Source: Takakia lepidozioides (taxonomy: Eukaryota > Plantae > Bryophyta). From it: 64,000 nt of DNA. This document shows, piece by piece, positions 27,255 to 56,899 of the stretch; position 1 is the stretch's first letter; each line of letters starts with the position of its first letter. A program made the translations under genes and the position numbers. The notes under the pieces were generated by a model. That model saw only the letters and a program-made list of their open reading frames with translations. It did not search any database and had not been told where the DNA came from. The DNA lies in NCBI GenBank assembly GCA_030704615.1, contig CM060731.1, forward strand, positions 21,700,001 to 21,764,000, given 5' to 3'.

Positions 27255-30200
27255 GCGCGATAGGTTTACCGCAGATCTTGTGAAAAGAAATCTTTGACAA
27301 GCATTACAGTGAGTAGTGAGTACCATGTGGGATCCATGTAGGGTCCACATTCTGTAAAACCATTAAGACCAATGGCCTAAACAGTGTCCTAGTACATTCC
27401 ATTCTCAAGCGAACATTGCAGAGGCAAAAGCCCACTTGTGCATCATCGCGGAAGCCGCTCAGTGCAGACTGCTGTTACTGGCAGTCATAATGGTGTGGTC
27501 GCAAATGCCGGTTCCAAGCCTTTACTGCTCCTCCCCGTCGTGTGGGGTGACAACGGCCCGGGGACCCCTATCTCCAAGAAGCCACACGATAGGAACGGGC
27601 AGGCTTTGACGCCCCGCGCCATGTCGTCCGAATAAGGCTGTTGGACACAGTCGGACTGTCAGGTCAGGGGACGACCCGGTTCTAGGGGAACACAGGCCAT
27701 GCTAGTTCCATAACTTGGGCTCTTGGACGGGACCTTCAGGTGCCGGCTCTTGGACGATGTAGATGGCAGGTTTTGACACCCGGGTTCCATGGGAACACAC
27801 CATGACACCCATCCGTCGAGCTCCAGCCACGAGTGGTATCCCGTGCTACCTTGCTCCTACTACTTAAGCTCAAGCTATGTTGCAGTCTTACTTACTACCG
27901 CTGTCGAGCTAGATAGAAACTAGCCTTACAAAATTTTACAAAAACTTTTTGTAGAGTCATGATCTCTGAAGAGTCACTAGAGGCTAATCAAAATTGCCCT
28001 CAACTCCTCGCAAGCCGGTCCACGCACGGACGAAACTTCAAACTTCTTTGCTTGCGTGAGAAACAGCCTCGAATTAAACCACTGTGAGGCAAGTGGCTTT
28101 TACAATTCACCACAACATCCGAGTCACAGTCAGGTAAAGAAAGTTGGTCTATACATACATCTTGAATTCTAAGTTTGTTGTCCTCCCAACTTCTCCTCTA
28201 TGATCGTAGTCACCATTTCTACAATCATACATGTGTCCTGGATGATTTCTTGAAGTACTAAGTATTTTCTTAGGAAAGTTCATCTTGTCCAAAACAACTC
28301 CTCCAAAACGACGCGACTGCTAGCAAATCAGCCTAGGTATTCCTTGCAACATAGGCAACGAGAACTGAATTGCAAAGATACACATGGAGAATTATCTGAT
28401 GAGTAAATCGGATTGAACTTTTGACGACAATGTAGATAAGATGTTGCAAATCTATGACGCGAAGTTATCATTTAATCTTGAGAGCTTGCCGAATATGTCC
28501 AAATCAACTTCACGCGACATGTACAACATTAGTGAGAGAAGAGACCTACCGTTGTCTTGGCAAGGTCCTCGCATCCAGTGAAAATCTCATGTCCAGGTGC
28601 CAAAGGCGACAGTGTAAGCCCGGGCTTTGTTAGCTCCACTGGTAGCCAACCTCTTCTTGTCATTCAGATCCTAGAATCCAACAAAGAGATGAACAAACAG
28701 TTGAGGCTCGTTCATAGAATACCACAAGTAACCGCAGTTGACATGACATGGACACTAATAAGCACCATCGTTCGGATGTCTGATCCAAAAGCCAAAGTGA
28801 TGACCTCCACTTCATGTGGCCCGGCTTAAGAGACACAGGGATTGAAATTGTCACAGCCTCACAAATCCAACAATGTACTCAAGATGATGGGTGGCAGTAT
28901 TAACTTGGCCAAATTATTTTCTCCCTCCCATTTTCATGCCGAAGCTAAAGTGTGAAACCCTTCGATACCTACTGAAACAATCAGCAAGGTGCCGATATCA
29001 CTTTATTAGTTACTTTCTCTACGGTTTGTCGTCCATTGTTTGAACAGATATCATGTTTGCACCCTTTCCATGAATCGCACCCTCCCAGATCGGAAAGGAT
29101 AGGCTAAATGGCCCTGTATCTATCTTCTTTACAGGTCCAATCATCCTTCTTCATTATCCCCACATCTGTGAACAAGTTATCAACATCTATGTACAACTAG
29201 ACGGGTCACATGGACTTAATCAGGTATTCAATCAGGTGGTGAAGCATACCATGTACTTCGTGCAACCATAGGCAAGAGGCTAAACCACATCTTTATTAGA
29301 AAAAAATTCACATTTACTATATAATTTTGAAGCATTTATGTCCGAGTTCACTGCAACGTTTGGAGAGAATGATAGAGAGAGAGTTGCAGAGACAAAGATA
29401 CGAAATCTTCGACAAGGAGCACGTCCTGCTTCCGTTTATGCTGCCGAATTTCGACAACTTGCGTGCGACCTCGATTGGAATGAGAAGAGCCTCATTAGTC
29501 AGTTTTAATATGGGCTAAAAGATGATGTAAAAGATTTGTTGCTGACAATGCCAAATGTGAGCACACTGAGTGAAGTCATCACCCAAGTCATTGCATGCGA
29601 TAATCGTTTGTTCGAAAGACGTCAAGAGAAGCGATCTGGATGGTCGACGACGCATCATGTCACTGTTACTACGGCACCAAACACAACAATCCATCAGACA
29701 TCCGGTAGTGATCCTATGCAGATTGATGCTGTCCGATTCAAGCTACTAACGCCACAAGAAAAACAAAGACGGCGCTCGAATGAATTATGCATCTATTGCG
29801 GAGAAGAAAATCATATAGCATTAAATTGCCCCAACAAAAGAAGATTCAAAGCTCGGGGCACAACTCAAGTGTTCGATACAAGGAGGTCCAAAAACGAAGA
29901 TGTCCAGTCACAGTAAGGACCATGCGGCTGGACACCACAAATTCCTTACCGAAAAAAAGTCTTTTTTTACCTCCAGACCCTGCACTTTGCTTCACAATTC
30001 CGGTAAAAATCAGAGTGCAAAATCGAGATATTTCTGTAGAAGCATTTTTGGACTCGGGGGCTTCAGCTTGTTTTATGGACAAAAACTTTGCGAAGCAACA
30101 CAATTTAACGCTCGTAAAGAAGAAACTCTCGGCCCCCGTTGAAATCATCGATGGACGACCATTAGCATCAGAAAATGTGGACCATGAAACTCGACCACTC

Positions 30201-32720
30201 GAAGTGAAGCTTAAAGATCAAGCAACACATATTGTTTTCAACGTCATCCAGTCTCCAACGAATCCTGTGATCCTTGGACTTTCCTGGTTCGTACTTCATT
30301 GTTCTTTGGAGCTAGAGCTTTCATGAGAGCATGTGGCATTCACACTTTATGCGACTCCGATCAAGACCACAATAAGCAAAGATACTTCAACATTATCCGC
30401 TCAATATCAAGATTTCAAAGATGTCCTCGAGAAGAAAAATGCAAACATATTGAGAACATCGACCTTATGACTGTGCAATTGAGTTACAAAAATGAGCCCA
30501 ACCACCATTCGGCCCAATCTATAACTTATCCCAGACGGAGTTGGCTACATTACGTGAATACGTTGATGAAAATTTGTCAAAGCACTTCATCCGACATTCA
30601 AAATCACCTACGGGGGCGTCTATCTTGTTTGTGAAAAAGAATGACGGATCATTACGCATGTGTGTCGACTATCGCGGTCTCAACAAAGTCACAATCAAGA
30701 ATCGTTATCCATTGCCACTGATTTCTGGGCTTCTCGACCAGCTAGGATGAGCGAAGATTTTCACCAAAATTGACTTGAGATGAGCTTATAACCTTATACG
30801 GATAAAAGAAAGAGACGAATGAAAAACAGCTTTTCGAACAAGGTTTGGACATTTTGAATATAGTGTTATGTCTTTCGGTCTTATGGCTCTAGCAATTTTC
30901 CAACATATGATGAATGACATCTTTCGAGAATTTTAGATGACTTTGTGTCATCTATTTGGACGACATTTTGATATTTTCACAGAATGAAGAAGAACATGGC
31001 CGCTATGTACGCCTTGTCCTTAATAAATTAAGAGAAAGATGACTATATGCCAAGTTCGAAAAATGTTTTTTCCATCAATCTAAGGTCGAATTTCTGGGCT
31101 ACATTATTTCCGATAAAGACGTCTTTATGGATCAGGAAAATACAAACCATCATCGAGTGGATTAAACCAACTTCGGTCCGAGATATACAATGTTTTCTGG
31201 GCTTCGCAAATTTCTATAGAATCTTCGTCAATGACTACTCCAAAATTGCTGCACCATTGACATGACTCATATGGAATGACAAATTTGTATGGGACGAGAA
31301 GGCTGACCAGACATTTGAAAGGCTGAAGCAAGCATTTACAACGGCTCCAATACTGGTACATATAGACCCATCTAAACCATTCTTCTTGGAAGCAGATGCA
31401 TCGGACTTTGCACTTGGCGCTATACTCTCTCAATACGGTACAGATGGCCGACTTCACCCTGTTGGTTTTCGTTCTCGCAAATTTTCCGCAACAGAGATCA
31501 ATTATGAAATCCATGACAAAGAACTTCTAGCGATCATCGATGCTTTTGAGGAATGGCGTCATCTACTGGAGGGAGCTAGACATCAGGTCACTGACTACAC
31601 TGATCACAAAAACCTCGAATATTTTATGATTGTTCGTGTTTTGAATCGACGTCAAGCCAGATGGGGTATGTCACTAGCAATGTTTGATTTTGTTATTACT
31701 TATCGCCCCAGACATCTTCAAGGGAAACCCGATGCTCTTTCTCGACGATCGTATCTTGCGTCGAAAAAAAAGGAGGCAGCTTTCGACCAACAGAAATCCA
31801 TCATCTTGAAACCAGCAAATCTCTAAATGAATGTGCTATCCATGTCCATCTATGACGATGCAGAGATCATAAAGGAGATTCAGGAAGCACTGAAGAATGA
31901 CCAATTTGCTACGATACTACGAAGTCAACTAAATTGACCTCGAGACAACCCACATGTTACAAACGTCTTCGAATTCAAAGATGATTTACTTTATTTCAAG
32001 GGACTTCGCTATGTACCTCCAGGACCTACACGACTTCAAATTCTTCAAACATGTCATGATCTTCCGGCTGTAGGACATTTCGGCTTCAACAAAACAATAG
32101 AATTGATATCCAGAGACTATTGGTGGCCGCAGATGTGGAAACTCGTGAAAGAATTTATAAAATCTTGCGACACGTGTGCTAGAGCACGACATCGACCTTA
32201 CGGCCTTCTTCAACCATTATCCATTCCCAATGGTCCATGGTCGTCTGTGTCTATAGACTTTATTACGGACCTTCCAATTTCCAAGACCACCGATTCAATC
32301 ATTTTTATTGTAGATCATTTTACGAAGATGACACATTTCATTCCATGTAATAAGACGATTACCGGCGAGGAAACTGCAAACTCTTCCTCAATAATATTTA
32401 CCGCATTCATGGACTCCCGAAGGACGTCGTATCTGATTGAGGACCACAGTTTATATCAAATTTCTGGAGGGGATTATTTCACATATTGGATACTAAGATC
32501 AATCTCTCTACAGCTAATCATCCACAGACTGATGGTCAAACCGAACGTGTAAATCAGAGGAGCAGTATCTTCGCTGTACGATAAATTATCATCAAGATAA
32601 TTGGACGGACCTTTTGTCATTGGCTGAGTTTGCCTACAACAACACTATACATTCTTCGACCAAACAAACTTCATTTTTCTCCAATTATGGTCATCATCCT
32701 CGAGCAAACCCTTTCCACAT

Positions 32721-32970
32721 TGTCGTGCGCATACATATCGCTACACAACTACATCGCTGTCCAAACCACACCACACATATATGCACAATAAAGTAGTCTA
32801 GCACAATCGCCCCCCTAGCTGGTGGATAGGTCCCTCTACCTCCAGATAGCTACAAGATGTAATAGCCACAGCCGTACTAAGTCCTCTATCACTGTCTTTA
32901 TCGTGCTCAAACTCTATCAACCAAGAGGCCGGGTACAAGAGTAGCCCCATCGTTAGTCGCCGTCTTGCAA
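32721..32970. repeat. Split direct repeat A, copy 1 (250 bp)
   Basis: Matches 33278-33499 except for a 28-bp indel bounded by ctctatca microhomology. Confidence 0.95.
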
Positions 32971-33275
32971 CCAAACCATCACTCTTAGAAATAGAAGTCG
33001 AGCCAGGGGCACCCCAAGCTATGGGGACTCCACCCCACAACAACCTACACTCCCATCATAAGCACACTCAGATCTAAACGCATGAAGGAGCTCGGTCGCG
33101 CAGGCTCAACTCGAGAGAGATGAGCTGCGCGACTGCCGCTCTCGTGAAGATAAGACAGACCAGGTGTCAAACTAAACTTGACACCTGATTTAACACTTGA
33201 CCTAAATCCAAGTGTTAAATACAAATAACTAGTTTTATTCTAGCTGTTTTCACACTGTGCTTATTTAACTTGACA
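32969..33275. repeat. Split direct repeat B, copy 1 (307 bp)
   Basis: Identical by eye to 44416-44722. Confidence 0.95.
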
Positions 33276-33277
33276 GC

Positions 33278-33499
33278 TGTCGTGCGCATACATATCGCTA
33301 CACAACTACATCGCTGTCCAAACCACACCACACATATATGCACAATAAAGTAGTCTAGCACAATCGCCCCCCTAGCTGGTGGATAGGTCCCTCTACCTCC
33401 AGATAGCTACAAGATGTAATAGCCACAGCCGTACTAAGTCCTCTATCAACCAAGAGGCCGGGTACAAGAGTAGCCCCATCGTTAGTCGCCGTCTTGCAA
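33278..33499. repeat. Split direct repeat A, copy 2 (222 bp)
   Basis: Starts TGTCGTGCGC two bases (GC) after B copy 1 ends in TTGACA. Confidence 0.95.
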
Positions 33500-33594
33500 T
33501 CTGTGAACTTGAGCCAAGATCTCGTGTGTTCAAGGTCTCCTAGTAGCTGGGCCTTGCGTTTCTTGTTAGCCTCCCATGGTTGTATCCACTCCCA

Positions 33595-36500
33595 CTATCC
33601 AATGCAATGTGGACATAACCAATCCCCATCCGGAACCATCTCAAGAGGTGGAGTCAAGCATCCCATATGCCAACCTCTAGAGCATCGATCACATACCAGC
33701 ATGGTGGCTGCCCCTTTAGCAGACCCACACAACATGCACCTCAAACCTGCAGATACCACTGCCAGGTTTGGGTCAATCCTGCCATCGACATTCGGAAGGT
33801 GACATGGCGCACAATTACGCACATGGTCCTTCCAAGTGATGCCATCCCGACCCTCCAAGACCAAGACGCCTGAGGGCAAGACCTCTCGAACCCTCAAAAT
33901 AACACGTCCTGCAGTCACATCCAGGGTCGTAGGAGCAGTCTGCTGCAGATAGACATAGTCACCAGGGTTGAATCTCCGAACCCCAGGACGATAGCCCCCA
34001 CCACGTATGGTAGCATACCTCAACGTATCACGGTGTTGTGCAATGGCAAGGTTCTCGAAAGCCATAGGCATGACTCTCTTGAACAACTCTGCACGCTGCT
34101 CACATGCACGTGCCCACACGTCCGGATCGTCAAGGTTAAGAACTGTAGCAGCTTCTCTGCGAATGGATGTAGGCAAATCCGGCTCTCGGCCAAAGAGAAG
34201 AAAGTATGGTGAGAAGGAGGCAAGTGATGCTTGCTTGCTGAACCTGTAGCCCATGGCTAACCAGGGTAACTGAAGGTCCCAATCTCCTAGGTGTCCCTTC
34301 TGCAAGCCATACTTGCGCAAACCCCTCTTTACTGTCTGAACAACTCTCTCTGCCAAGCCATCGGCTTCAGGATGATCCCGAGAAGTGGTGCGGTGGTCTA
34401 TCAAGGCCTTGTCACACAAAGCCTGAAACTCCCCCAAGAACTCTCTCCCTTGGTCCGTGAGTACCTCAGCTGGAGCACCGAATCGGCTAAGCACACAATC
34501 CAGGAATGCATACGCAGCTCCCTCACTAGCCTTATCAGGCAATGGAACCAATTCAATCCACTTGGAGAAGTGCTCCACCATCACCAACACGTACTTGTTG
34601 TGGCGCATGGTCAGTGGCAACGGCCCTGCGAAGTCAAGACTCCACCTGTAGCCCAATCCCATGATCGGAAGAGGGTGCAATTGTGGAGTAGGGGCGTTGA
34701 ATGAAGCACGCACCCTGTCACACACCATGCACCTAGCCACAAATTGTTGCACCTCTGTGTGCATACCACGCCACCAATACTGCCCCTGCAGTAGACTATG
34801 AGTGCGTCGCACCCCAAAATGCCCCAACTCCTCATGGGCATGCCGCACTAACCGTGCCCGCTGTGTTGGGTGAGGCACAATCCTCACTCGACCATCCTCC
34901 CACACTCGGAGCAGGTGTGTCCCCTCCCACCTGAACCTCTTGGCTCGTTGTAGGATCCGATCCCTCTCCTTGGCAGTCATAGTGGCTGTCGTGTCTCCAC
35001 TGCGGAGGTAGTCCAACACAACTGAATCCTCATGTATATCTTTGGCGCCACTCTGCTCATTGCTGGCCTCAGGGTCCTCAGACACTTGATCTACAGTCAT
35101 CCCTGTTGTAGGTCCAACCTGGCCTTCCGCTGCCAAGATACACAGAAATGCAGATGCATGCCATCCGGGCACCATCTCCTCGTCCGTCTCACCATGCCAC
35201 CGAGCTCCAGTGTCATCCTGCTGGCTCGTGCATGGATTGCGACTCAACCCATCTGCATTTCGATTGACCAAACCCGGTCGATGCACCACCTGAAAGTCAT
35301 ACTCTTGAAGGATGAGTGCCCACCGTGCAAGCTTCCCCGTAAGCTTGTCTGACTCCATCAACCACTTGAGTGGTTGGTGATCCGTGACAAGGGTGAAGAG
35401 ATTGCCGTATAGATAGCACCTGAAGTGTGCCACGGCCCACACTGCAGCTAAGCATTCTCCCTCATATGAGCTATACTTAGACTCTGCAGCATTGTTCGAG
35501 CGGCTAGCATAAGCCACTACGAACTCTCTTCCCTCATCATCCACCTGTGTGAGCACCGCTCCAAGCCCCAGCATGCTCCAATCTGTATGCAGCTGAAAAG
35601 GACGCCCCCTGATAGGTCGTCTCAAGATGGGCGCCGAGGTCAACCTCGCCTTGAGCTCTTGAAAAGCTTGTTCTTGCTCATCTTCCCACTGCCACTCCTG
35701 GTCCACCTTGGTCAGCTTGGTTAGAGCCTTTGCAATGGCACTAAATCCCTTAACAAACCGTCTGTAATAGTTTGCTAACCCCATGAAAGCTCGAACTCGG
35801 CTCACATCCGTGGGGCGTGGAACCTGTGCAATGGACTCTACCTTAGTCTGCTGTACCCCCAATCCTCCAGGATATATCATGTGACCCAGATACTCAATCT
35901 GGTTGTGGAAAAACTTGCACTTGCCCGGATGTAACTTCAATCCGTGCGTCCTCAAGCGCTCAAATACCCCCTGAAGGTGTCTCTCATGCTCCTCCACCGT
36001 AGCACTAAAGATGATGATGTCATCTATGTAGCACCGAGCAAACTCCACCCCTGCTAGAATCCTGTCCATGACTCTTTGAAACTCAGCGGGAGCGTTTTTA
36101 AGCCCAAATGGTAAGAACCGCCACTGGTATAGGCAATCCTTCCCGTGCTCATTGATCCCCCAGAATGCCGTCTTTTGCTTATCCGCCTCCTTGATCGGCA
36201 ACTGGTGATATCCGGATCGTAAATCCAACGTGCTAAAGACCTTGGAATGCCCAATGGCATCAAAGATCTCCTCTGGTGTTGGCATGGCATACCTATCGGA
36301 CTTGGTCTGACGATTTACAGGCCGGTAATCACCGCACATACGTCTCTCCGTCCAATTGCCATAGACATCCTTCTTAGCTGGCATCACTGTGGCTGAAGCA
36401 TACTCTCCACCAGAGAGCTCCACCAAACCTGCCTCCCAGAGATCTTGAGTCCTCATCTGAATCAAAGACCTCTCCATGTCACTGTATCTATAGGGTCTCC

Positions 36501-36729
36501 GAAAGATTGGCGTGTCAGTGGCCAACTCAATACGGATCTCTTGACCCTTCAGTGCTCCCAAGTCCTTCAAACTGAAGGCAAAGCAATTCCTGTAAGCCCT
36601 CAGGAACCGCCGTATACGTCGTCTCTCTCCTCCGGTGACAATGGGTCCAATGTCAGGCTCCCAATTGTCCTCCGTAACTGCAACCTTAAGTCCAGTGGGC
36701 TTAGAGGTAGAGGACGCGTCCCGTGGTTG
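33595..36729 (-). CDS. pol: pol: RT, RNase H, DDE integrase and C-terminal PHD finger
   Basis: RMCGDYRPVN, LDLRSGYHQ, LPFGLKNAP, YIDD; LHTDWS, ADGLSR; HHCC, WSLDFAG, LTDQG, GLAER; PHD CMLC..CDRC..WHMGC..WLCPHC (C4HC3). Frame is open upstream to the TAG at 36730-36732. Confidence 0.95.
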   Translation of the reverse strand, partial: QPRDASSTSKPTGLKVAVTEDNWEPDIGPIVTGGERRRIRRFLRAYRNCFAFSLKDLGALKGQEIRIELATDTPIFRRPYRYSDMERSLIQMRTQDLWEAGLVELSGGEYASATVMPAKKDVYGNWTERRMCGDYRPVNRQTKSDRYAMPTPEEIFDAIGHSKVFSTLDLRSGYHQLPIKEADKQKTAFWGINEHGKDCLYQWRFLPFGLKNAPAEFQRVMDRILAGVEFARCYIDDIIIFSATVEEHERHLQGVFERLRTHGLKLHPGKCKFFHNQIEYLGHMIYPGGLGVQQTKVESIAQVPRPTDVSRVRAFMGLANYYRRFVKGFSAIAKALTKLTKVDQEWQWEDEQEQAFQELKARLTSAPILRRPIRGRPFQLHTDWSMLGLGAVLTQVDDEGREFVVAYASRSNNAAESKYSSYEGECLAAVWAVAHFRCYLYGNLFTLVTDHQPLKWLMESDKLTGKLARWALILQEYDFQVVHRPGLVNRNADGLSRNPCTSQQDDTGARWHGETDEEMVPGWHASAFLCILAAEGQVGPTTGMTVDQVSEDPEASNEQSGAKDIHEDSVVLDYLRSGDTTATMTAKERDRILQRAKRFRWEGTHLLRVWEDGRVRIVPHPTQRARLVRHAHEELGHFGVRRTHSLLQGQYWWRGMHTEVQQFVARCMVCDRVRASFNAPTPQLHPLPIMGLGYRWSLDFAGPLPLTMRHNKYVLVMVEHFSKWIELVPLPDKASEGAAYAFLDCVLSRFGAPAEVLTDQGREFLGEFQALCDKALIDHRTTSRDHPEADGLAERVVQTVKRGLRKYGLQKGHLGDWDLQLPWLAMGYRFSKQASLASFSPYFLLFGREPDLPTSIRREAATVLNLDDPDVWARACEQRAELFKRVMPMAFENLAIAQHRDTLRYATIRGGGYRPGVRRFNPGDYVYLQQTAPTTLDVTAGRVILRVREVLPSGVLVLEGRDGITWKDHVRNCAPCHLPNVDGRIDPNLAVVSAGLRCMLCGSAKGAATMLVCDRCSRGWHMGCLTPPLEMVPDGDWLCPHCIG

Positions 36730-37029
36730 CTATGCTGCAACCTCTTGAGCAGTACCCCCTTCCTGCTCAGTCAATGACAAGGCCTCATCCTGCCCCATCA
36801 TCTCATCATTGAGAACCTCCTCATCCCGAGAAGAATCCCCAACCTCATCCATCACAGCTGCCTTCGCTGCCAACTCCCTCTGAACCTCGAGCACCTCCCA
36901 CATGTGCCATGGATGTCTACACCTCGTGGTCCTCACCGGCTCGCCCCCACTCGCTGCCTGTACCGTCTCGGTAGGCAGAGAGACCGTCAAGGGAAGTGCA
37001 CTCCGCACTCTACGTTGCTCAGCCATAGC

Positions 37030-37980
37030 CAAGCTGACAATCCAGGTCAAGCAATTGAGATCCATTGCTTGCCCCAACACCTGACGACGTGATGCCTCAG
37101 AAAGAGAAGGCACCGCCGTGGTCCCAGTGGAAAACCCATAGCCCGCTCTCGCTCGTCGGCATTAGGCTCCACTAACTGCTGCAACTGAGCATCCCACAGG
37201 AGGCCAGGTCCACCATCCCGAAAAGCATGGGATCCTGGGAAGCTGAGCAGTGTAGGTAATGCTGCTCGTGGTTGACCCACCCTGTTGACCACTGCCAAAG
37301 GCGAACGGTCATCGTGTCTCACACGTTGAGACTGCCTTCCTGTGTCCAAAATGCCATCCACGGTGAGGTGTGCTGGCCGCTGCACCCCATCAAATGCACG
37401 CTTGAGCAGTGCGGGTGGCATCAAGTTAGTCCACCATAGTCGTGGACGATGAGCCCGTGACCCCACTGCAGCTGCATCCAGCAATACTGCTGACCCAAGC
37501 CACGACCGGACTTGATGCACACTGGCCATCACCCTGGCCCGAGAATCACCCATCAGTGGTACATTCTCCAAGATGTATGCTGGAGATACAGCTTGATGAA
37601 GCTGCAAGCAGCGCAAAATCCGCACCATCTCCCAAAACAGACCCGTCCTCGAGTCTCGCAATCCATTGCCATGCCCGGCTGATGAATGCCCTTGGCAGGG
37701 CCAACCTGCCACTATCAGATCAATGGAGCCAACCTGCTCCAAATCTTGCGCCCCCAACAAGGAAATGTCTGCTGGCAAGGCTTGTTGGTATCCACGAACT
37801 GCAGACACAGGCAACAAGTCAGGGTACTGCTGTACCAACTGAGCCACATGGCGCAGTGAGACGCGTCGTGCAGTCTCATCCCTCTCCACATACAGGTAAC
37901 GCCTTACCCGCACACCTGCCTGTAGCACAGCAGCCAATCCGGTGCTGATCCCGCCAAACAAGTCCAGAAGGCAAATGCCT
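37030..37980 (-). CDS. DNMT3-like C5 cytosine methyltransferase domain within the polyprotein
   Basis: Motif I LDLFGGISTG, II YVE, IV IVAGWPCQ, V GLFWE, VI ILENV, VIII AHRPRLWWTNL, IX ERAMGFP; after a 1-bp shift, motif X SRRQVLGQAM. Canonical non-permuted order. Confidence 0.92.
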
Positions 37981-39074
37981 TCATCCGGCCGCTGCCACAC
38001 AAGAGGTGTGGTGTCCAATGGCGACAACTGAGGTGGCCCTGGTGCAATCACCGCACTCTCCTCCTCTCCTGACGGTACAAAAGCTTCTACCCAAGCTTGT
38101 TGCACCCGTCCATCAGCAGCTTGCTGCAAATCCTTGCTCGTACCCCACAACGGAGTGTGAGCAACCATGGCAGGCAACTCCGCCGTACCATGCATGTCAT
38201 CCTGCTCTGCTGGAGGTGGCACATCCTCTGCATGGGCATTGCCTTCCAGCAACTCTCCAGGCCAACTAACTGCAGCTGTGAAGGCGGCTAGTGTTGGCAT
38301 CTTGCCCCGCTGGGCAGCTGCAATACCCCCAATGAATGTCACAGGGAGCTGTGCACGGCGACCATCCCCTGACTGCCATCCAGGCCTGTAGGATGCTGAC
38401 TCCTCCCAGAAATCCAGGGTGAAGCCCATGGGGTATAACACTGCCCCACCAACGAGGACATCGTAAGAGACCGCGTCTGTCACAATGGCCTTGGCTCGCA
38501 TCACTGAGCCATCTACAGGATGATCCGGCTGCAGTCTAATAGCCAACTGATGCCGTGTCATGCCGCGAGCCTGCTCTGATCCTCCCAGAGATGTCTGTAT
38601 CTGGAAAGGACAAGGCTCCATATCCGCCTCCATGAGGCCCAAACCTGCAATAGCAGCTCTGCCCAACATCAGTGGCTGAGCTCCTGAGTCCAACAAGACC
38701 CGCAGTGGCCGGTACTTCTTGCCTGCCGGTCCACTCAAAGTGAAAATGCCTCCCTGGTTGTCTAACAAGACAACTCCAGGTGTCACCATGGCGCGCTCAA
38801 TGGCTGGCCTAGCTGGCAGCTCCGTCAACCTGGCAGCTGCAACTTGCCATGGCGCAGCCGTGGCAGTCTTGACCCTCAAATCCGAGGATCCCTCTGCCAC
38901 TACACCTTCCACTAACTCCGCAGAAGATGAAGTGACCTCCCCACTCTCACAGAGAGTTGCTGCTAGTCTGAACACTGCAGCTGGTCTCACCCCCGGCGTC
39001 GCAATCATGGTTGCCGAGAACAGTGGGGCTTGACACACAGAGGTGGCTGCTCCCCAATAACACACCGGCTGCAC
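37981..39074 (-). CDS. Aspartic protease region of the polyprotein
   Basis: VLLDSGAQPL active site and YDVLVG C-terminal motif, in the same ORF (37047-39074) as the methyltransferase. Confidence 0.85.
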
Positions 39075-40928
39075 TAGCCTTGGTAGCAGGTGTCAGTGCT
39101 GCACGTGTAGCTCTCCCCAATGGCATAGTAACCTCCGCCTCGGTAACAGTCGGGCGAGAACTAGGTGCCATGGATGGCGTTGACACTGTCTCCGCCAAGG
39201 TGAATGACTGAGGCAGCCTCGCCTGACGGCTTGCCTCCCCACGTTGTGGATCCAACTCCACCTCTGCACCTCGTGGCTCAGGAACTCGTGCTGCTCCTCG
39301 AGTCACGGCTGCAGCAGACTCCACCTGCTCTAGTGGTAGTGCTGCTCCGCACATGAATCCCATGCCTCCCATATCTCCTCCCTCAGGAGCAGGAGGTGGA
39401 CCATCCCGCCTGGGAGCCGGTACCACCTGAGCTATAGCCATGGCGAGCCTCTGCTCTAGCTGCTGAAGCCGATTGGCCATGCCTTGGTCAACACCCTGAC
39501 CTCCGCGTCCTTGGCCATGTGGAGCTTGCCCTTGGCCTGCACCTCGTGCCCGACCACCTCGTCCTCTTTGGGCTGGTCCACCTCGCCCCCGGCCACCATT
39601 GTTCCCTTGGAACTGGCCTGGGCGCAACTCAGGATGCAAGTCATAACACTGGGCATCTACATGCCCATACTTGCCACAATGCCCACACTGCAACTGTGCA
39701 GGCTGTGCTTGTGCCGGCCTTCTGCCATTCTCTGGGCAATCTCTTTGACATGGGGTCCTCCACATGTCCAACATATCACCCCTGGTTGCTGTTGGCCTGC
39801 AAAAGATGCCACGGGCCTCTGCACCTGAGGTCCCCTGTAAGCTCCATGGAACTTGGGCTGGGCAACCTTGCCCCCCTGACCACGCTGTTGGGCAGTCCCT
39901 TGTGCCTGTGGGCTGACAGCTGTGCCCCGTACAGGCATGTCCTTGCCAAATCCAATTGTAACAACTCGCTCCTCCACCATGTTGAGCTCAATCCGCTCAG
40001 CCAGCAGAAACACATCTGCTAATGTGGGTTGGGCTGCTTGTAACAGGGTTGCATCTCGCACCCTTCTCTTGAGCTCCTTGTCCAGAATTCCATACCAAAA
40101 CTGGATTGCCTGAGCTTCAGTAACCCCTTGGGTCACACTTATCAAGCGCCTCATACGAGTGTACGCCTCTCGCAGGCTCTCACTGGGTTTGCGCTGGAAG
40201 TCTTGCAAACTTCGCAGCTTCTCTGTCCGTACACCTTGGTAGTTCCTCCGCAACTCCTGGAAGAACTCCACCACCGGGTTGAATCTAGGCACATGTGTTG
40301 TAGTTGTGGCAGGAGGAGTAGTAGCACCTTTTGAACTGGTACCACCTGCAGAAGTACCAGCACTACCTGCTCCACTACTAGTGCTGGCAGTGGGAGCTAT
40401 TGGTACTGATGCAGCTACTGGTCGCGTCGTGCCTCGAGTAATGGAGACGTAGTCAGGTGACCAATACATCCTCCACTCCTCAATCTCTGCTTCATGTCCT
40501 CGCCTGAACTCGTGGTAATCGTCCATAGGCGGGCCTTCCAAATGCTGGAACAGTCCCTTCCACGCCATGAATGGGGTGAATAGCTGTGGATTGCGCATCT
40601 GCTGCAAATCACACCAGCTGTCGAACTCCTGGATAAAGTCATCCAACTCGATTGTGCCCACAGCTCCAGAGTACCTACGAGGCCCCTTGGTAGCTCCATA
40701 CATCTCCTCCATGTCGTCCCACAACAATGGCGAATGAAAGTGCACACCTGTTGATGAAGCCTCCGAGTCTGTGTCTGACTCTACAGTAATTGAGGGTGGC
40801 GGTGAAGGTGGTCTGAACCGAATACCTCGTCTTGTGAACCCACTCTCACTGTTACTGCCTGTAGCCGTACTCCCCTCAAAACCCTTGGGTAACTCCGTAA
40901 TGACACTCACAATGTGCACCTCCTCCAC
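39040..40928 (-). CDS. gag: gag with two zinc knuckles and an RGG-rich stretch (two 1-bp frameshifts)
   Basis: Retrotransposon gag-like LQDFQRKPSESLREAYTRM; CWTCGGPHVK/RDC across a frameshift; CGHCGKYGHVDAQC; GGRGRGG. Confidence 0.82.
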
Positions 40929-42451
40929 GTGACACTATAAGGCTCTAGTACTAATCTAATAGTGACACGGGTGGGCACCTGTTGCAGTTTTAAGGGTCAT
41001 ATCCCAATGGCTCAGGGCACCTGCACCTGCATCCACCGCAAGAATCCTATGGTTGGCTGGTCATCAACCCAGCCTCACCATAGAAGAAACACTGGTGGTC
41101 TTGCTGGTCATCACTCCCAGCCTCACCACCGACAGCATACTCTAGGATTGACGGGTGATCAAATCCGGGCCTAATCCCTATGGAAAGCAAGCGCCCACCA
41201 AAACCAACATGGCGCACAGTCAAGCATGCAGGTGTTGGGGGGGATCCAAAACACAAGAAATCAAAACATCAACACCCCCACACCAAAATCCAGCTTGCAA
41301 TGCTGATCCTGCAGAATATCCCAGCCCAAAACCCCGGACTGACTGGCCTCCACCAAGAGAGGCTTTGGCAACTACAAGTACAGGTAATGAAAATAGTACA
41401 GAGATGGAGGGGAAGAATAGAAGCCCGACCAAGCAAGATCTAATCCTGATCTATGCTATCAACTGCCAGACTCTCTCAAAGTGCCTCGCTCTGCATGATG
41501 GTAAGGTGTAGGAGGTATATCTATGTCCAGAAACCTGCCACTAACCTTGTCCCAAGCTACAGTAGCTCGCTCTAACCACCCTCCTCCTCTGTCTGCCAGG
41601 TAGAGACAAAGCAATACTCCCATTATCTCCCGCTCACTGAACACTAAAGAAAACAAAGGTAGGGTGATAGTCTCTCAACTCGAAAAGCTTGAGACGGTGC
41701 GGGTGTCCTCATTGCGAATGACTGCATCTCCTTCACGCACAACAAACATGTCATTGCTGATGAACCCCGCTCGTGGTTGCCCCTGTGTAGAGTGTATCGG
41801 CTGCAACCATGTCTGATTGCACAAACTTGTGTAGCTCCTGCTCCTCTGCTCCAGTACACCACGGCCTTGTGGCTGAAACACCTTGGTCCCGGGGCTGTCT
41901 TGGCTGTGTTCCAAGCCTAGCTTTCACCCACTTTGGTATTTCACCTACAGCTGCAGAACTGCTGGCTCCAACAGAGTTCTGACTGTCCAAGGCGATATTG
42001 AGGCCCTCAATGCCAACTACAGCAGTCTGTTGTCTATTGCTAATGCTGACTCCCAGTATTGCAATCAACTCGTCCAACTGTTCTCCACTCAAATCAGTCT
42101 GAGTTCCTTGGGAAACATAAATCCTGTCCCCTTGTGTACACAGGCTAAGAGAAGAGACCTGCCCTTCAATTACGTCCTCATTTCCCCCCAGCCATGCAAG
42201 GAGTACATCCACAGATTTGTCTCTCATAGACCAGCACAGGTTCTAGAGACAGGATTGTGGATCTTTTATGGCAACACTCACACTCTCTAAAAATTCCATA
42301 GATTTTTAGCAGAGTCCAAAAACAGAAACCAGGTCTAGGTAGGTAGATTTCCCCTTTCTGCAGCTATCTTCCCAAAAACTGAGTCAAACGGAGTCCATCT
42401 GACAAAGATATGACCAACCAAGCTCTAAATCATTTGAATTAGATCAAAAAA

Positions 42452-42482
<31 letters not shown>

Positions 42483-42780
42483 AACGCCAAAACGTTCTCA
42501 CCATTAAAAACTGTTCCCAGGTTATCTACAGGTTCCGAACATGTTCATGTAGTTCTCTGTTGTTTTGGGGTCGCCTCGCCATTACCACGGAGCAGCTCGA
42601 TTTGTTGGACTCCGATCGGCTTCTCCTCCATGATGGACCGCGTTGCGCTTCGTCATCCCTCAGCTGCATTTGTTCAGGTGTCCGTCCCACATACTTATCA
42701 TTGCTGACTCTCAGGTCGTTTCCCGTAAGTTCCAGCTCGCATGGAGGGAGATTACCGGCAGCCTGCACTTAAACTCGACT

Positions 42781-43058
42781 GCCTCCCTGATACCATGCTG
42801 TGGATCTGACCAGTACTCAATGCTTTATGCAGACACATATTGATCCGCGTAGTCGGTCGCGAACGGCAAGTCCTCTGCATCCCCTTCAATAATCGTGCAC
42901 TCCTTGAGAGGTGCCTTCTCCTTTGCTTTTAGCAAGCTGGTGAGGAGATTGATCCAGAATGCTCACATTATTGGCATCCACAGTTTTTCCAATCCCCAAT
43001 GTGGCGAATCCCGTGCCGCCACCAACATCTACCACCACCAAGGTAGGATCATCGAGGC
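42781..43058 (-). pseudogene. VTE3: Captured VTE3 (MPBQ/MSBQ methyltransferase) fragment, middle part
   Basis: Manual translation LDDPTLVVVDVGGGTGFATLGIGKTVDANNVSILDQSPHQLAK/AKEKAPLKECTIIEGDAEDLPFATDYADQYVSA*SIEYWSDPQHGIREA. Confidence 0.9.
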
Positions 43059-43105
43059 AAATCTGAAGTAAGTTAGGCTGTTTTTGAATTGGGTTTTATT
43101 CAGCG

Positions 43106-43506
43106 ATGGCAATGGCTGCAAGGATGGCCGCACCATCGTTGCAATGGCAGTGGAAGCCCGGTGACAGTTGTGGACAACCAACAAAGGCTTTGCTCGGGAT
43201 ATCCTGCAGGTTTGAGCTCATCATCATGCTTACATAGGTAGCGTCGACAGGCTTGTTGCTCAGCGGGCAATTATAAGCCAAGAACTGGAGCGTGCATGTG
43301 AGCAGAAGGAGAAATAGTAGCGGTCTTCGATTGCGGGCTGTCAGTGCAGACCAAAGCGTCTCAAGGCCTGCGTCGCAGCTGCGGTTCATCCAGCACAAGC
43401 AGGAGGCATTCTGGTTTTACAGCTTAGTGTCTGTATTGTACGACCATATCATAAACCCTGGGCATTTGGGCGGAGGACATGCAGGAGGATACTCTAGAAC
43501 CAGCAG
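43106..43506 (+). pseudogene. VTE3: Captured VTE3 fragment, N-terminal part including transit-peptide region
   Basis: MAMAARMAA...SVSRPASQLRFIQHKQEAFWFYSLVSVLYDHIINPGH/AEDMQEDTLEPA, with stops and a frameshift. Confidence 0.9.
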
Positions 43507-44415
43507 ATGGACTCCACAGGAGCAACGGTGGCCAGAGCACATAGGAGAGCTTTAGCAAGCTTGGTGGAGCTGACAAAGTCACCAACAATTATCATTGTCT
43601 GATTCTGCAGTTGCTGCAAGGGCCTCTCGTCGTCCAGTGGCCATGGCAACGGGAAATCTAATGGCATCCATTGCTGCTGCAGATACTTAGTATCCAAGCC
43701 TCTGTGATCACATCTGTGCATAGGGGACGACGAAGGTCAGGCTTTTGCGAACAAGAGAGCAGGGAAGAAGAAAACAGCTTCAATTTCTTGCTTTATACTT
43801 AGGACCAGCCGATGGAGCTCCCTGCCCATTCTAGCCTGTACATCCTCGTCAGCATCGTTGCTGGAGGGCTCAACCCAAGCACCCAGTTGGAATGTGCGCT
43901 CAGCTATGACGTTGGCTTCCCCAACAGCCCCTTCTCAGGAGAAGAGCCACAGTCCAGAAGCTTCGTGTGTTGATTCCCTGGATTACTGGCCTGATAGCAC
44001 TGTTTTAACCCACACCTGCGTAAGGCAAGCTCGTCGCCGATGACACTGTGAACCTGACGAACTAATGCCGCCGGATCACTTATCCAACAGAGCGCATCTG
44101 CCTTTCGGAAGTGGAGACCCTTGATATATGCGTAAAGAACCACCGGTGCCTCCGACATAGGAAGGCCTTCGATCACATGCAAACTAGGGGCAGGCATAGG
44201 AAAACCAACGACAAGTTGATGATCAATCGCAAGGCTAGAATCTACCACAGAAACCTGCAGCTCAAGTTTTAACCAACATAGAGCCCCCGTCTCTCTTACT
44301 TTCAAAACAAAAACCACAAGTGCTAAAACTAAACTCACCTCTGGCACTCACAGATGCAAGCTGATCTCTCTCGAGTGATAAGAAAGCTAAGGACACACAC
44401 GATGCAAAGCATGAA

Positions 44416-44722
44416 AACCAAACCATCACTCTTAGAAATAGAAGTCGAGCCAGGGGCACCCCAAGCTATGGGGACTCCACCCCACAACAACCTACACTCC
44501 CATCATAAGCACACTCAGATCTAAACGCATGAAGGAGCTCGGTCGCGCAGGCTCAACTCGAGAGAGATGAGCTGCGCGACTGCCGCTCTCGTGAAGATAA
44601 GACAGACCAGGTGTCAAACTAAACTTGACACCTGATTTAACACTTGACCTAAATCCAAGTGTTAAATACAAATAACTAGTTTTATTCTAGCTGTTTTCAC
44701 ACTGTGCTTATTTAACTTGACA
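44416..44722. repeat. Split direct repeat B, copy 2 (5' terminus of the element)
   Basis: Identical to 32969-33275; not accompanied by repeat A. Confidence 0.95.
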
Positions 44723-45466
44723 ACATGAAGACTGTTGGAAGCCCTGCTGTAGAAAACCTTGCTACTCATTTGCTACGATTCACAAAGAGCTTACATTCCA
44801 CCTCGCATAAGCTCAAAAACAATACTAGGAGTATGCAGACCAACGTCGCCAATTCCAACTCTAGTTCAAGGTCGGAGATTGGGTGTGGTTTCTTCAACGG
44901 GACATACAAACCTCGCGACCATCAAGGAAGTTGGATTATCAACGTCTGGAACCACTCAAAATTATTCGACAAATAAATCCAGTCTGTTTTCGGCTTGAAC
45001 TCCCACGAAGTATGCGCATCCATCCAGTCTTTCATCTTTCATTAGTGGAGTTGTATCATCCATCGAATATTCCAGGGAGAGTCTCCGTACCACCTCCACC
45101 AATCGAAGTCAATCAGGAAATTGAATATGAAGTTGACGAAGTCGTAGACTCTCGCATCAAGTATAAACGTCATGAGTATTTCGTACATTGGAAAGGCTAC
45201 GACATCAGCGAACGATCGTGGGAACCTTCATCCAACCTCGTCAATGCATCTGACAAAGTCCAAAAATTTCATCAACGATATCCAGCTAAGCCCCGAGCTA
45301 CACGTCAATAAGACGTCACAACGATGATGTCAGTCAAGTTAGCTTCAAGGTGAAGACTCCACATTCAATGTACCTGATACACATTAAGGAGGGAGGAGCA
45401 CCACACATCAGTATATATAGTTATACTTCCAGCACTTCCAGCACTCTTGCATCTTGTATTGGCAAC

Positions 45467-45904
45467 ATGGAGTCATAGGAACCAGATACATTGGAGTTGT
45501 CGCTTACCCAACTACCAGATCAGTCGTTCCGACTCTCACGACCTTCAACATCACGCTGACGATCTCGAGACGATGGGCCACCAATGCGACGCGTACTTCC
45601 TCGTCTGGACCCCGTACGACGGCAAGTGGAGCCTACTCGAAGTTTGATAATTCTGTTGGAGGTTGAGGCTTCGGACCCAGAGGACAACGAAATCATGTTT
45701 GAAGGCAGTTTCGAAAATCAGAATGCTCAAATCACTGCGTGGTCCGAAGTTCAAGGTGTTGGATACTATCGATGGTTGCAGGGACCTATAAATCATTTGA
45801 GACAAGAACGAAGAGTCGAATACTTGGCAAGCACCATTCGCCGGATTTTCTCCAATTCTAAGCAAGTCCAAGATTTTACCGCTCCTCGAGGAACTCGGCG
45901 CTAG
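45467..45904 (+). pseudogene. Extra ORF between chromovirus pol and 3' LTR (145 codons, two premature stops)
   Basis: ATG at 45467 is in frame with ORF 45584-45904; internal TAG and TGA; TATATATA box at about 45412. Confidence 0.5.
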
Positions 45905-45916
45905 AGGAGGGGGTGA

Positions 45917-46552
45917 TGTCACGGATATAGCCCAGAGGAACTTACCAGAAGTTACCAAGTTACCGAAAGTTACCATGATTTACCGTGATTTACCATGATC
46001 TATCATGATTTACCATTACTTACCAAGTTACCGGAAGTTTACCAAATTATCAAGAGTAATTTGAGAAACTGCTCAAGAAGCTTCCTTTGGAGGAAACTTC
46101 TCCATCAAGATACCTCTTTTGTTTAAGGAAGCTTCTTCATCAAGAAACATTTGCTTAATCGTTGAAACTTCTCCATCAAGAAACTTTCATATGAGAAGCT
46201 TTCTTAGGGAACTTTTTAGTAGCCAGTATATATAGGAGGCGAGATTTGACACTCTTCAGTCTCGCCAACACAAGTTCAAGCTACTCTTGTTCCCAGTCCC
46301 AATACTCCAGTCCAGCTTCCAGTACTCTAGTCCAGTTTCCAATATCTAGTACGCTAGTCCAATTTCCAGCATTCCAGTATTCGAGTCGAGTCCGAGTCCC
46401 AGTATCTTGTACTCTTGTCCATTGTTATAAAGATCATCTTGATTCATGTTTACCCACCATGCATTCGGCCACGTCGACCTTGTCTTCGTGTCTAGTCTTG
46501 TACCTTTAGTCTGATATCTTGTTTGTGTTCAGTCATGTTCTCGTCCTTGACA
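45917..46552 (+). repeat. 3' LTR of the Tcn1-like element
   Basis: TGTCA...TGACA immediately after the PPT; internal ttacc and tccag short repeats; TATA at about 46227. Confidence 0.88.
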
Positions 46553-47229
46553 GATAGTGACTATAGTGATGTCACTAAAGTACTCGAAGCAGCTGTGGAG
46601 GGTATATGCAGGACTGGGTGTCTCAGTTTTTGTGTAACATGACAGTTTCTGCAGTGACCTCCCTCCATGGTTTTACCCATATTTGTCCAACAACTCAATA
46701 TTATGGTTTCTAACTACAATAGGTATGTGTACCAATTGTTAGATTGCAAAAACAATCATGTACCATAGAACCATGGACTTTTAAAGTTGATTACTGGGGA
46801 GTGCGGGTGTTACACATAAAATCTTATGGACTGAAAAAACATCATGTACACTCATACACTGGCACAAAGGAAAACACACTAGGGGTGTTATTTTTAAATC
46901 CAACCCAAATCCACTTTTATATGGACTAGTTATCTTAAGAATTGAGAGCTATGGACTATTTTGCATATAAAAACATGTTGATTTGCTCTAGTCCATAGCA
47001 TCTTATGTTTTGGGTTTTTGAGGTATCGTCTTTAATTAAAAAGGCATACAAACCTATAATCTAGAGGTGTCACGTGGTATATGGAGAAGTGGTTGTAAAC
47101 TCTAGATTTTGACGTCTAAATGTTTTTTTTAATTAAATATTAAAATATCTAGTAAAGAATGTTTTCAATATTTGAGGAAAATAAACTGAAAGCAATAGAC
47201 TAAAATAAAATAAAATTCCATAGACTTCC

Positions 47230-56851: not shown

Positions 56852-56899
<48 letters not shown>

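What the first reader, a model, noticed from the sequence alone, without database searches (positions are those of the whole stretch)
33595..40928. Retrotransposon polyprotein with a DNMT3-like cytosine methyltransferase between protease and RT
Seen: ORF 37047-39074 carries the protease (LLDSGA) and, in the same frame, a C5-MTase with motifs I (LFGGISTG), IV (catalytic PC), VI (ENV), VIII (AHRPRLWWTNL), IX and, after a 1-bp shift, X. The linker after motif X is in frame with RT. Established: these motifs parallel DNMT3 (LFDGIATG, GSPC, FENV, AHRARYFWGNL, ERVFGFP) and are not permuted as in plant DRM. DNMT-carrying retrotransposons have been reported in dinoflagellates and the charophyte Klebsormidium; I do not know of a characterised land-plant example. 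Inference: the enzyme is released by the protease, packaged in the particle, and methylates the element's own cDNA or integration site, for example to mimic host chromatin or to self-regulate.
Basis: partly seen in the sequence, partly recalled or inferred. Interest (0 to 1): 0.93.

Follow-up and report, generated by a model that had tools for sequence, protein, structure and literature searches.

The report
Land-plant retrotransposon carrying its own DNMT3
A broken copy of an abundant plant jumping gene encodes its own DNMT3-like DNA methyltransferase ahead of a conserved stop codon that is likely leaky, so the enzyme would be made in capsid-level amounts, and its scrambled end repeats suggest that it likely inserts by cutting a circular DNA copy at an internal site; elements of this kind were described before only from an alga.

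Summary
Observation confirmed, with corrections. The element spans 44722 to 32721 on the minus strand (TG...CA ends, 4-bp target duplication). It encodes Gag, protease, a DNMT3-like methyltransferase (MT), then RT, RNase H, integrase and a PHD finger. This copy has three frameshifts. MT is not fused to RT: an in-frame TAG lies between them. That stop, in a TMV-like CAR-YYN context, is present in 32 of 36 sequences spanning the junction, so readthrough is likely and MT would be made at Gag levels. The repeats run A-body-B-A-B, as in Klebsormidium KnitGypsy-Dnmt3. Three subfamilies show a self-priming site after A, a G-tract before B and a palindromic CA-GC-TG joint. This implies the working LTR is B+A and integrase cuts inside it, probably on a circle (inferred). 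MT is under purifying selection (dN/dS 0.11-0.14). It occurs in Marchantia, Calypogeia, Sphagnum, Closterium and Tetraselmis elements and tracks the RT tree. Ten paper searches found no land-plant description. This scan noted the family before in two other (moss-like) genomes. Activity is untested. Verdict: new variant of a known kind.

The parts
44416..44722 (-). Repeat A1 (left end of element, begins TGTCA); the U5-like part continues to a CA at about 44376
   Evidence: 307 of 307 bases identical to A2; left flank carries the 4-bp target duplication
44556..44575 (-). Predicted 5' end of the RNA (self-primer) inside A1
   Evidence: 13-nt exact reverse complement of the stretch at 44376-44364; 0 of 100 shuffles reach 13; duplex -32 kcal/mol
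44359..44376 (-). Predicted self-priming primer-binding site, directly after a CA
   Evidence: same arrangement with different letters in L022/L028 (17 nt) and L025 (16 nt)
42400..44300 (-). Low-copy insert in the 5' leader: decayed host-gene fragments ending in a poly(A) run; limits approximate
   Evidence: depth drops by two to three orders of magnitude in three DNA-type runs; weak class I methyltransferase and PC-esterase hits
39100..40712 (-). Gag with zinc-knuckle region, broken by a frameshift near 39750
   Evidence: Retrotrans_gag E 1e-3, below cut-off; 61% and 40% identity to Marchantia P0002 residues 1-309 and 311-490
38350..38760 (-). Aspartic protease region (LLDSGA)
   Evidence: motif seen in sequence; no Pfam hit in this copy; some relatives carry PF13650
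37000..37991 (-). DNMT3-like C5 cytosine methyltransferase, motifs I-X, frameshift between IX and X
36724..36732 (-). In-frame stop TAG followed by CAA CCA: predicted readthrough signal
   Evidence: conserved in 32 of 36 sequences spanning the junction; matches TMV UAG-CAR-YYA (PMC2754532)
33595..36729 (-). Open 1044-aa frame: RT, RNase H, integrase, PHD finger
   Evidence: Pfam; YIDD, RNase H and DDE motifs present; best solved match Ty3 Pol
33278..33499 (-). Repeat B1, with a G-rich PPT-like tract at 33378-33364
   Evidence: matches B2 apart from a 28-nt gap; G-tract 92-120 nt upstream of the joint in 4 of 5 joints
33272..33281 (.). Palindromic internal joint GACA-GC-TGTC: element right end, 2 nt, element left end
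   Evidence: seen in the window, L004, L025 (GT spacer), L028 and L029
32969..33275 (-). Repeat A2, 40 nt short of the U5-like end seen after A1
32721..32970 (-). Repeat B2 (right end of element, ends GACA)
   Evidence: empty-site joints 32716 to 44723 in three runs

Best explanation
This is a frameshifted copy of a Ty3/Gypsy-like retrotransposon with A-body-B-A-B repeats, a DNMT3-like methyltransferase and a PHD finger, whose methyltransferase is likely made with Gag, likely packaged, and predicted to methylate the element's new DNA copy, which likely inserts after integrase cuts a circular form at an internal site. Shown: domains, conserved catalytic residues, selection, the conserved stop, the repeat layout and the 4-bp target duplications. 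Inferred steps: (1) most ribosomes stop after Gag-PR-MT and a minority read through TAG-CAR-YYA to make RT-RH-IN-PHD, so MT outnumbers RT and integrase; (2) the RNA starts inside A and primes itself on the site after U5, and a G-tract primes the plus strand before B, so the working LTR is B+GC+A; (3) the linear copy is joined end to end, and integrase makes a 2-nt staggered cut at the palindrome CA-GC-TG, which gives retrovirus-like recessed CA ends; a two-LTR circle yields A-body-B-A-B and a one-LTR circle yields A-body-B; (4) MT methylates this cDNA before insertion, so new copies arrive pre-marked, while the PHD steers integration to chromatin lacking H3K4 methylation. My odds: readthrough 0.8, self-priming 0.8, internal cutting 0.7, via a circle 0.55, MT active on own cDNA 0.5.
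For: Stop: 32 of 36 sequences have TAG (24) or TAA (8) at the same place; the next codon is CAA/CAG in 30 of 32 and the following one YYN in 32 of 32; 8 groups mostly 40-57% alike around the stop keep it, 6 of 8 with YYA. No Met within 10 codons in 8 of 32, including the window. TMV consensus from PMC2754532. Relatives' Gag-PR-MT proteins end about 75-165 residues after motif X. Selection: MT dN/dS 0.12, 0.14 and 0.11 in three pairs of the L024/L025/L029 group, equal to the protease. Catalytic Cys in 115 of 120, motif VI Glu in 129 of 137, motif VIII Arg in 126 of 133 sequences covering each column. Ends: 4-bp duplication in 5 of 5 insertions with both ends; palindromic joint in 5 sequences; primer complementarity in three subfamilies whose A repeats do not align, 0 of 100 shuffles each; the A2-B2 joint differs in all three copies seen, L019 keeping 9 nt of the primer site, as expected for fresh end-joining; two monomers (L021, L039). 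PHD: best matches are CHD4, PHF12, KDM5A/B PHD1, ATXR5, PHF21A, which I recall as readers of unmethylated H3 tails.
Against: No activity, expression or readthrough was measured. The Klebsormidium MT did not methylate yeast DNA (inconclusive). 22 of the 32 stop contexts are one Sphagnum-like family, many duplicates, with CAA CCC followed directly by ATG, which also allows separate initiation. Random cutting of a two-LTR circle should also give the mirror form A-B-A-body-B; it was seen in 0 of 12 left ends (11 distinct). The window's B2 begins about 155 nt upstream of the G-tract and holds 28 nt that B1 lacks, which a plain linear cDNA does not explain. L019 is damaged, so only two clean joints exist. 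In L021 the primer match is poor and in L010 and L039 short. CpG depletion of the element (o/e 0.43-0.55) is shared by LINE, Tc5 and GRAS sequences in the window, so it does not show self-methylation. Within the decayed Sphagnum-like family dN/dS is 0.4-0.7 for all domains.
Confidence: 0.55

Rival explanations
1. PAT/Ngaro-like copying: the RNA runs through B2, the A2-B2 joint is inherited, and the ends arise by template switching without a free circle; monomers come from B1 x B2 recombination after insertion.
For: Same repeat order as DIRS-type elements (PMC5890265); no mirror form in 12 left ends; the window's B2 differs from B1 by 28 nt and starts upstream of the G-tract.
Against: Two copies of one family (L028, L019) have different joints, one with primer-site remnants; a normal primer site and G-tract frame B+A as an LTR. 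Even here the integrated ends do not match the primer-defined ends.
Confidence: 0.25
2. RT-RH-IN-PHD is made separately (reinitiation, splicing or a subgenomic RNA) rather than by readthrough.
For: A Met lies within 10 codons of the stop in 24 of 32 sequences; Ogre elements splice out the spacer between their ORFs (PMC6317226).
Against: No nearby Met in the window, L003/L044/L045, L021, L025, L029, L048; zero spacer, constant frame and a conserved CAR-YY context.
Confidence: 0.15
3. The MT acts on targets other than its own cDNA: it is released in the cell and methylates host DNA or rival elements, or it serves mainly as a DNA-binding scaffold that coats or circularises the cDNA.
For: Gag-level supply exceeds what one cDNA needs (inference); DNMT3 chains form oligomers in the matched structures; some algal relatives have weak, degenerate MT hits (P0192, P0196, P0204, P0225); 23 of 120 have Glu in place of the motif IV Pro.
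Against: Catalytic Cys, Glu and Arg are kept in over 90% of sequences; the domain always lies inside the particle polyprotein, at either of two positions.
Confidence: 0.3
4. One-off capture of a host DNMT3 fragment, now neutral.
For: This copy is frameshifted and also carries captured host fragments in its leader.
Against: 164 relatives at E <= 1e-10 among 7993 scored; dN/dS about 0.1; MT and RT trees share subclades; depth over MT is like that of gag.
Confidence: 0.02

Closest known systems
KnitGypsy-Dnmt3 of Klebsormidium nitens (de Mendoza et al. 2018, PMC5890265)
   Same: Unpermuted DNMT3-like domain in a Gypsy polyprotein; repeats 'the same as a DIRS retrotransposon', given for SymbioDIRS as A-coding region-B-A-B; purifying selection.
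   Different: Land-plant host; the paper places the capture in the K. nitens lineage, while my trees point to an old green-lineage clade; MT ends a Gag-PR-MT ORF at a conserved stop; the text I read does not mention a PHD, priming or integration mechanism. No direct sequence comparison: 0 of 4 K. nitens proteins retrieved held an MT, and the main supplementary PDF could not be read.
SymbioDIRS-Dnmt3 of Symbiodinium (PMC5890265)
   Same: A-body-B-A-B repeats, DNMT3 in Pol at two alternative positions; shown to methylate CG in yeast.
   Different: Integrates with a tyrosine recombinase; this element has a DDE integrase and 4-bp target duplications.
Tf1/Sushi and Tcn1 self-priming Gypsy elements (PMC6317226, passages)
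   Same: Primer site complementary to the element's own 5' end instead of a tRNA.
   Different: Ordinary LTR-body-LTR layout, chromodomain, no MT.
PHD-bearing Gypsy elements of Chlamydomonas (Gypsy-7a_cRei; bioRxiv 10.1101/2022.06.16.496473, passages)
   Same: PHD finger in Gag-Pol, proposed to guide insertion.
   Different: No MT or split repeats mentioned in the passages read; relationship not tested.
TMV type I readthrough signal (PMC2754532, passages)
   Same: UAG followed by CAR YYA.
   Different: Viral replicase; the paper lists rice gypsy elements (RIRE2) only as untested candidates.
IS3/IS911 circle-junction transposition (recalled, not checked here)
   Same: A DDE enzyme cutting abutted ends separated by 2-3 bp on a circle.
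   Different: Bacterial DNA transposons; no reverse transcription.

Membership tests
KnitGypsy-Dnmt3-type elements | Gypsy domain set and order (Gag, PR, RT, RH, DDE IN) | tested here: met
KnitGypsy-Dnmt3-type elements | Unpermuted DNMT3-like domain with catalytic residues in the polyprotein | tested here: met
KnitGypsy-Dnmt3-type elements | A-body-B-A-B repeats | tested here: met
   window, L028
KnitGypsy-Dnmt3-type elements | Purifying selection on the MT | tested here: met
   dN/dS 0.11-0.14 in three pairs of relatives; window pairs have saturated dS with dN 0.23-0.48
KnitGypsy-Dnmt3-type elements | MT in one clade with the Klebsormidium MT | tested here: inconclusive
   K. nitens RTs fall in the same broad RT set, but no K. 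nitens MT was retrieved
DNMT3 family | Groups with host DNMT3 in a tree against DNMT1/CMT/DRM | tested here: inconclusive
   Best sequence and fold matches are DNMT3; tree has only 13 phage/bacterial outgroups and no host DNMTs
DNMT3 family | De novo cytosine methylation activity | not testable with these tools
   needs an assay
Canonical LTR retrotransposon structure | Two complete identical LTRs at the ends, PPT directly before the 3' TG | tested here: not met
   5' end lacks B; G-tract lies 92-120 nt inside
Canonical LTR retrotransposon structure | TG...CA ends and 4-6 bp target duplication | tested here: met
   4 bp in 5 of 5 insertions
DIRS/PAT/Ngaro | Tyrosine recombinase instead of DDE integrase | tested here: not met
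   rve integrase with DDE residues; no recombinase hit in the ORFs scanned
Troyka | CG...CG ends, 3-bp duplication, animal hosts | tested here: not met
   PMC12440569
Chromovirus | Chromodomain after integrase | tested here: not met
   PHD instead; the chromodomain nearby belongs to the element it inserted into

The most novel reading that the evidence does not exclude
An ancient green-lineage clade of Gypsy-like elements, hidden from LTR finders by its permuted repeats, replicates by a route not described for LTR retrotransposons: self-primed cDNA is circularised, and a retroviral-type integrase opens it at an internal palindrome. Each particle is loaded with Gag-level amounts of an active DNMT3 that pre-methylates new copies, and intact ORFs sit annotated as hypothetical genes in Marchantia, where this can be tested.
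Probability: 0.35. Interest if true: 0.9.

Novelty: new variant of a known kind. Interest (0 to 1): 0.72.

Why it matters
It extends DNMT3-carrying Gypsy elements from one alga to liverworts, peat mosses, Closterium and chlorophytes, and suggests one old capture instead of a Klebsormidium oddity. It makes an open question from the 2018 paper testable in a model plant: Marchantia has several full-length Gag-PR-MT ORFs (Mp4g09160, Mp5g06330, Mp5g06860, MpVg00370, MpVg00540). These could also inflate host DNMT counts. If integrase really cuts an internal joint, circles would be productive intermediates for a retroviral-type integrase, which I recall is not the accepted rule.

Tried and rejected
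It is a land plant, probably non-seed: GRAS and PGG genes, an aromatic-cage chromodomain in the flanking element (PMC6317226 limits these to non-seed plants), and liverwort elements as nearest named relatives. Troyka was a lead from memory and is rejected. CpG depletion as a trace of self-methylation is not specific. Viral contigs gave only distant phage methyltransferases, 30 loci at 29-50% identity over short stretches. Rfam: 0 hits in 32000-46000. No RNA holder listed. The 50%-representatives search never ran, so host DNMT3/DRM/CMT sequences are missing from the tree. Whether the stop and the three frameshifts are shared by sibling copies in this host, or whether the frameshifts are assembly errors, is open; one 2173-nt contig covers the stop with 4 differences and no gaps, three of them placed elsewhere, which is only a hint. 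No target duplication was found for the leader insert. Both trees are quick searches with SH-aLRT only. No complex prediction was run.
Full report
OBSERVATION. The ORF 37047-39092 (-) holds the protease motif LLDSGA and C5-methyltransferase motifs I, IV, VI, VIII and IX in one frame; Pfam PF00145 scores 5e-13. A profile of 18 relatives hits DNMT3A/B/C in its first 29 of 50 PDB sequences (E 2e-18 to 9e-14), before HaeIII and HhaI. A model of the domain (pLDDT 80, pTM 0.77) finds only DNMT3 chains in the 35 rows shown. Against Marchantia P0002, an intact 1278-aa Gag-PR-MT, this copy breaks frame near 39750, 39050-39160 and 37122-37137. The downstream 1044-aa frame is open and has RT, RNase H, integrase and a PHD finger with catalytic motifs present; its best solved match is Ty3 Pol.

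THE WHOLE ELEMENT. It runs from 44722 to 32721, begins TG, ends CA and has a 4-bp target duplication. It sits inside a chromovirus integrase gene, and empty-site joints appear in three runs. The repeats are split: A1 (44416-44722) equals A2 (32969-33275) at 307 of 307 bases, and B1 (33278-33499) matches B2 (32721-32970) apart from a 28-nt gap, in the order A-body-B-A-B. Identical A repeats suggest a recent insertion; whether the frameshifts are real or assembly errors is open. Summed contig depth over the body is hundreds to thousands of times that of the leader insert in three DNA-type runs. The tool warns this is no copy number, but the family is clearly abundant and the MT is covered like gag.

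FAMILY. The MT search gave 60 longer proteins and, with a profile, 164 at E <= 1e-10 of 7993 scored, named from Marchantia polymorpha, M. paleacea, Calypogeia and four Sphagnum species. The Pol search (120 of 5657 listed) added Riccia, Klebsormidium, Closterium, Tetraselmis and Tetrabaena. Among 326 proteins held, the MT lies either before RT or between RNase H and integrase. In a quick RT-RH tree of 99 rows the window groups with Marchantia, Calypogeia and one unnamed row (support 95), among Closterium- and Klebsormidium-containing clades (rows were limited to first-round hits with a 370-480 aa RT-RH span). In a quick MT tree of 60 rows (44 hand-picked proteins, the window, two loci, 13 phage or bacterial enzymes) all 47 element MTs stand apart from the outgroups (100), and the Closterium, Tetraselmis, RH-MT-IN and land-plant subgroups recur. 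That fits long co-inheritance, but without host DNMT3 a single capture is not proven. Of 154 MT-bearing proteins, the catalytic Cys is kept in 115 of 120 covering it, motif VI Glu in 129 of 137 and motif VIII Arg in 126 of 133. dN/dS for MT is 0.12 (L024-L025), 0.14 (L025-L029) and 0.11 (L024-L029), like the protease; window comparisons are saturated at silent sites; pairs within the decayed Sphagnum-like family give 0.4-0.7 for every domain.

THE STOP. I gave 53 of the 71 metagenome loci (the element-like ones) to the script; 35 plus the window span the RT start. In 32 of these 36 the first upstream stop in the RT frame is at the same place; the four exceptions (L043, L047, L049, L050) are divergent elements. 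The stop is TAG in 24 and TAA in 8; the next codon is CAA or CAG in 30 and a C-to-T variant in 2; the next is YYN in all 32 (YYA 9, CCC 22, CCT 1). They fall into 8 groups, mostly 40-57% alike around the site, 6 with YYA. CAR YYA after UAG is the TMV readthrough consensus, giving 20-32% readthrough in plant reporters (PMC2754532, passages). Against: 22 rows are one family, with duplicates, and have ATG three codons on; 24 of 32 have a Met within 10 codons. The window and four other groups include members with none. Several unnamed relatives have a single ORF without the stop. Inference: MT is produced at Gag level and RT/IN at a fraction of it.

THE ENDS. The B1-A2 joint reads CACGACA-GC-TGTCA: right end, two bases, left end, a palindrome. 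It recurs in L004, L025 (GT), L028 and L029, with a G-tract 92-120 nt upstream in 4 of 5. Directly after a CA at the end of A lies a stretch complementary to a site inside A, 26 nt after a TATA-like box in L022, L028 and L025 (32 nt after a weak one in the window): 13 nt in the window, 17 in L022/L028, 16 in L025, each beyond 100 of 100 shuffles, although the three A repeats do not align. Decayed copies show shorter matches, and L001 and L021 none at that site by this test. This is the self-priming layout known from Tf1/Tcn1 (PMC6317226, passages). So the priming signals frame B+GC+A as the working LTR, whereas the integrated ends lie at the internal palindrome. Five of five insertions with both ends have 4-bp duplications: three end in A-B (window, L028, damaged L019) and two are A-body-B monomers (L021, L039). 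The A2-B2 joint differs in all three: near exact in L028, with 9 nt of primer site retained in L019, and in the window 40 nt short of U5 and about 155 nt upstream of the G-tract. My reading: linear cDNA is joined into a circle and integrase opens it with a 2-nt stagger at CA-GC-TG, leaving recessed CA ends like processed retroviral DNA. Against: the mirror product was seen in 0 of 12 left ends (11 distinct), the window's B2 is hard to derive from a plain linear copy, and monomers could arise by B1 x B2 recombination.

WHAT THE MT DOES. Not shown. Its place in the particle polyprotein, conserved catalytic residues and selection favour activity on the cDNA, the idea de Mendoza et al. raised for the DIRS elements. 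Their Klebsormidium domain gave no signal in yeast, nor did human DNMT3B. CpG depletion here is shared with LINEs and a host gene and says nothing. The PHD resembles CHD4, PHF12, KDM5 PHD1, ATXR5 and PHF21A fingers; that these read unmethylated H3K4, as the DNMT3 ADD domain does, is recalled.

WHAT IS KNOWN. PMC5890265 (abstract, passages of the Klebsormidium section, three sections whole, three supplements searched; main supplementary PDF unreadable, and it may bear on domain order and the stop) describes KnitGypsy-Dnmt3 with DIRS-like repeats in K. nitens only. PMC12344493 and bioRxiv 10.64898/2026.05.21.726589 (passages; preprint supplements closed) cite it as streptophyte elements without land-plant examples in the passages read. 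REXdb (PMC6317226, passages) has no hit for PHD, methyltransferase or Marchantia, and was built with LTR-FINDER, which needs two LTRs. PMC12440569 (parts 1-3 of 5) excludes Troyka. PMC12859917, PMC10952607 and bioRxiv 10.1101/2022.06.16.496473 (passages) added nothing on this family. Ten searches found no land-plant description, no readthrough signal and no integration model; 'KnitGypsy' occurs in one paper. Subscription journals and Repbase are not covered. This scan recorded the same family in two other, moss-like genomes (e1-7364918, e1-7303700); I saw only a few lines of each.

VERDICT. A real feature and a new variant of a known kind. The MT in a land-plant element is solid but already seen elsewhere in this scan. 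The added value is the conserved stop and the evidence that integration ends differ from priming ends. Interest 0.72.

Noticed in passing
window 42400-44300 (-): Low-copy insert in the element's leader: a decayed class I SAM-methyltransferase fragment (42730-43095; from memory like plant VTE3), a weak PC-esterase-like fragment (43494-43736) and a poly(A) run at 42460-42483. Looks like captured host transcripts.
   Followed up: partly
window 29784-32720 and 44723-45311 (+): The element sits inside the integrase gene of a chromovirus with an intact aromatic-cage chromodomain. Its four ORF pieces have CpG o/e 0.87-1.18, the only undepleted sequences among 16 ORFs measured.
   Followed up: partly
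P0042, P0046, P0051, P0225 (Tetrabaena), L043: A second architecture with the MT between RNase H and integrase forms one group in the MT tree (99) and one in the RT tree (96), suggesting a single relocation. Some members have a degenerate MT.
   Followed up: partly
L028 10080-10130, L025 8240-8290, window 33499-33440: A conserved non-coding motif shortly after the PHD stop is shared by three subfamilies whose repeats otherwise do not align; the window's B2 starts exactly there. Possibly a second priming or packaging site.
   Followed up: no
P0343, P0063: Element proteins are deposited under cyanobacterial names (uncultured Synechococcales; Obscuribacterales), probably plant contigs binned into metagenome genomes.
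   Followed up: no
P0399, P0400, P0401, P0404: Four members of the Marchantia Gag-PR-MT cluster, two full length, are annotated on the V sex chromosome.
   Followed up: no
window 19465-22229 and 25142-27250: A long inverted duplication (85-94% complementary) that includes a 2-hydroxyacid dehydrogenase fragment at 20493-21044.
   Followed up: no
window 7734-14800, 47204-49238, 55435-57766: LINE RT fragments, a Tc5/pogo transposase, Copia pieces, and a GRAS gene whose Pfam match is complete.
   Followed up: no
L049 1-133 and 11941-12073: A 12-kb contig with terminal overlap carries a divergent MT (SCQ at motif IV) upstream of RT; either a collapsed repeat or a circle.
   Followed up: no
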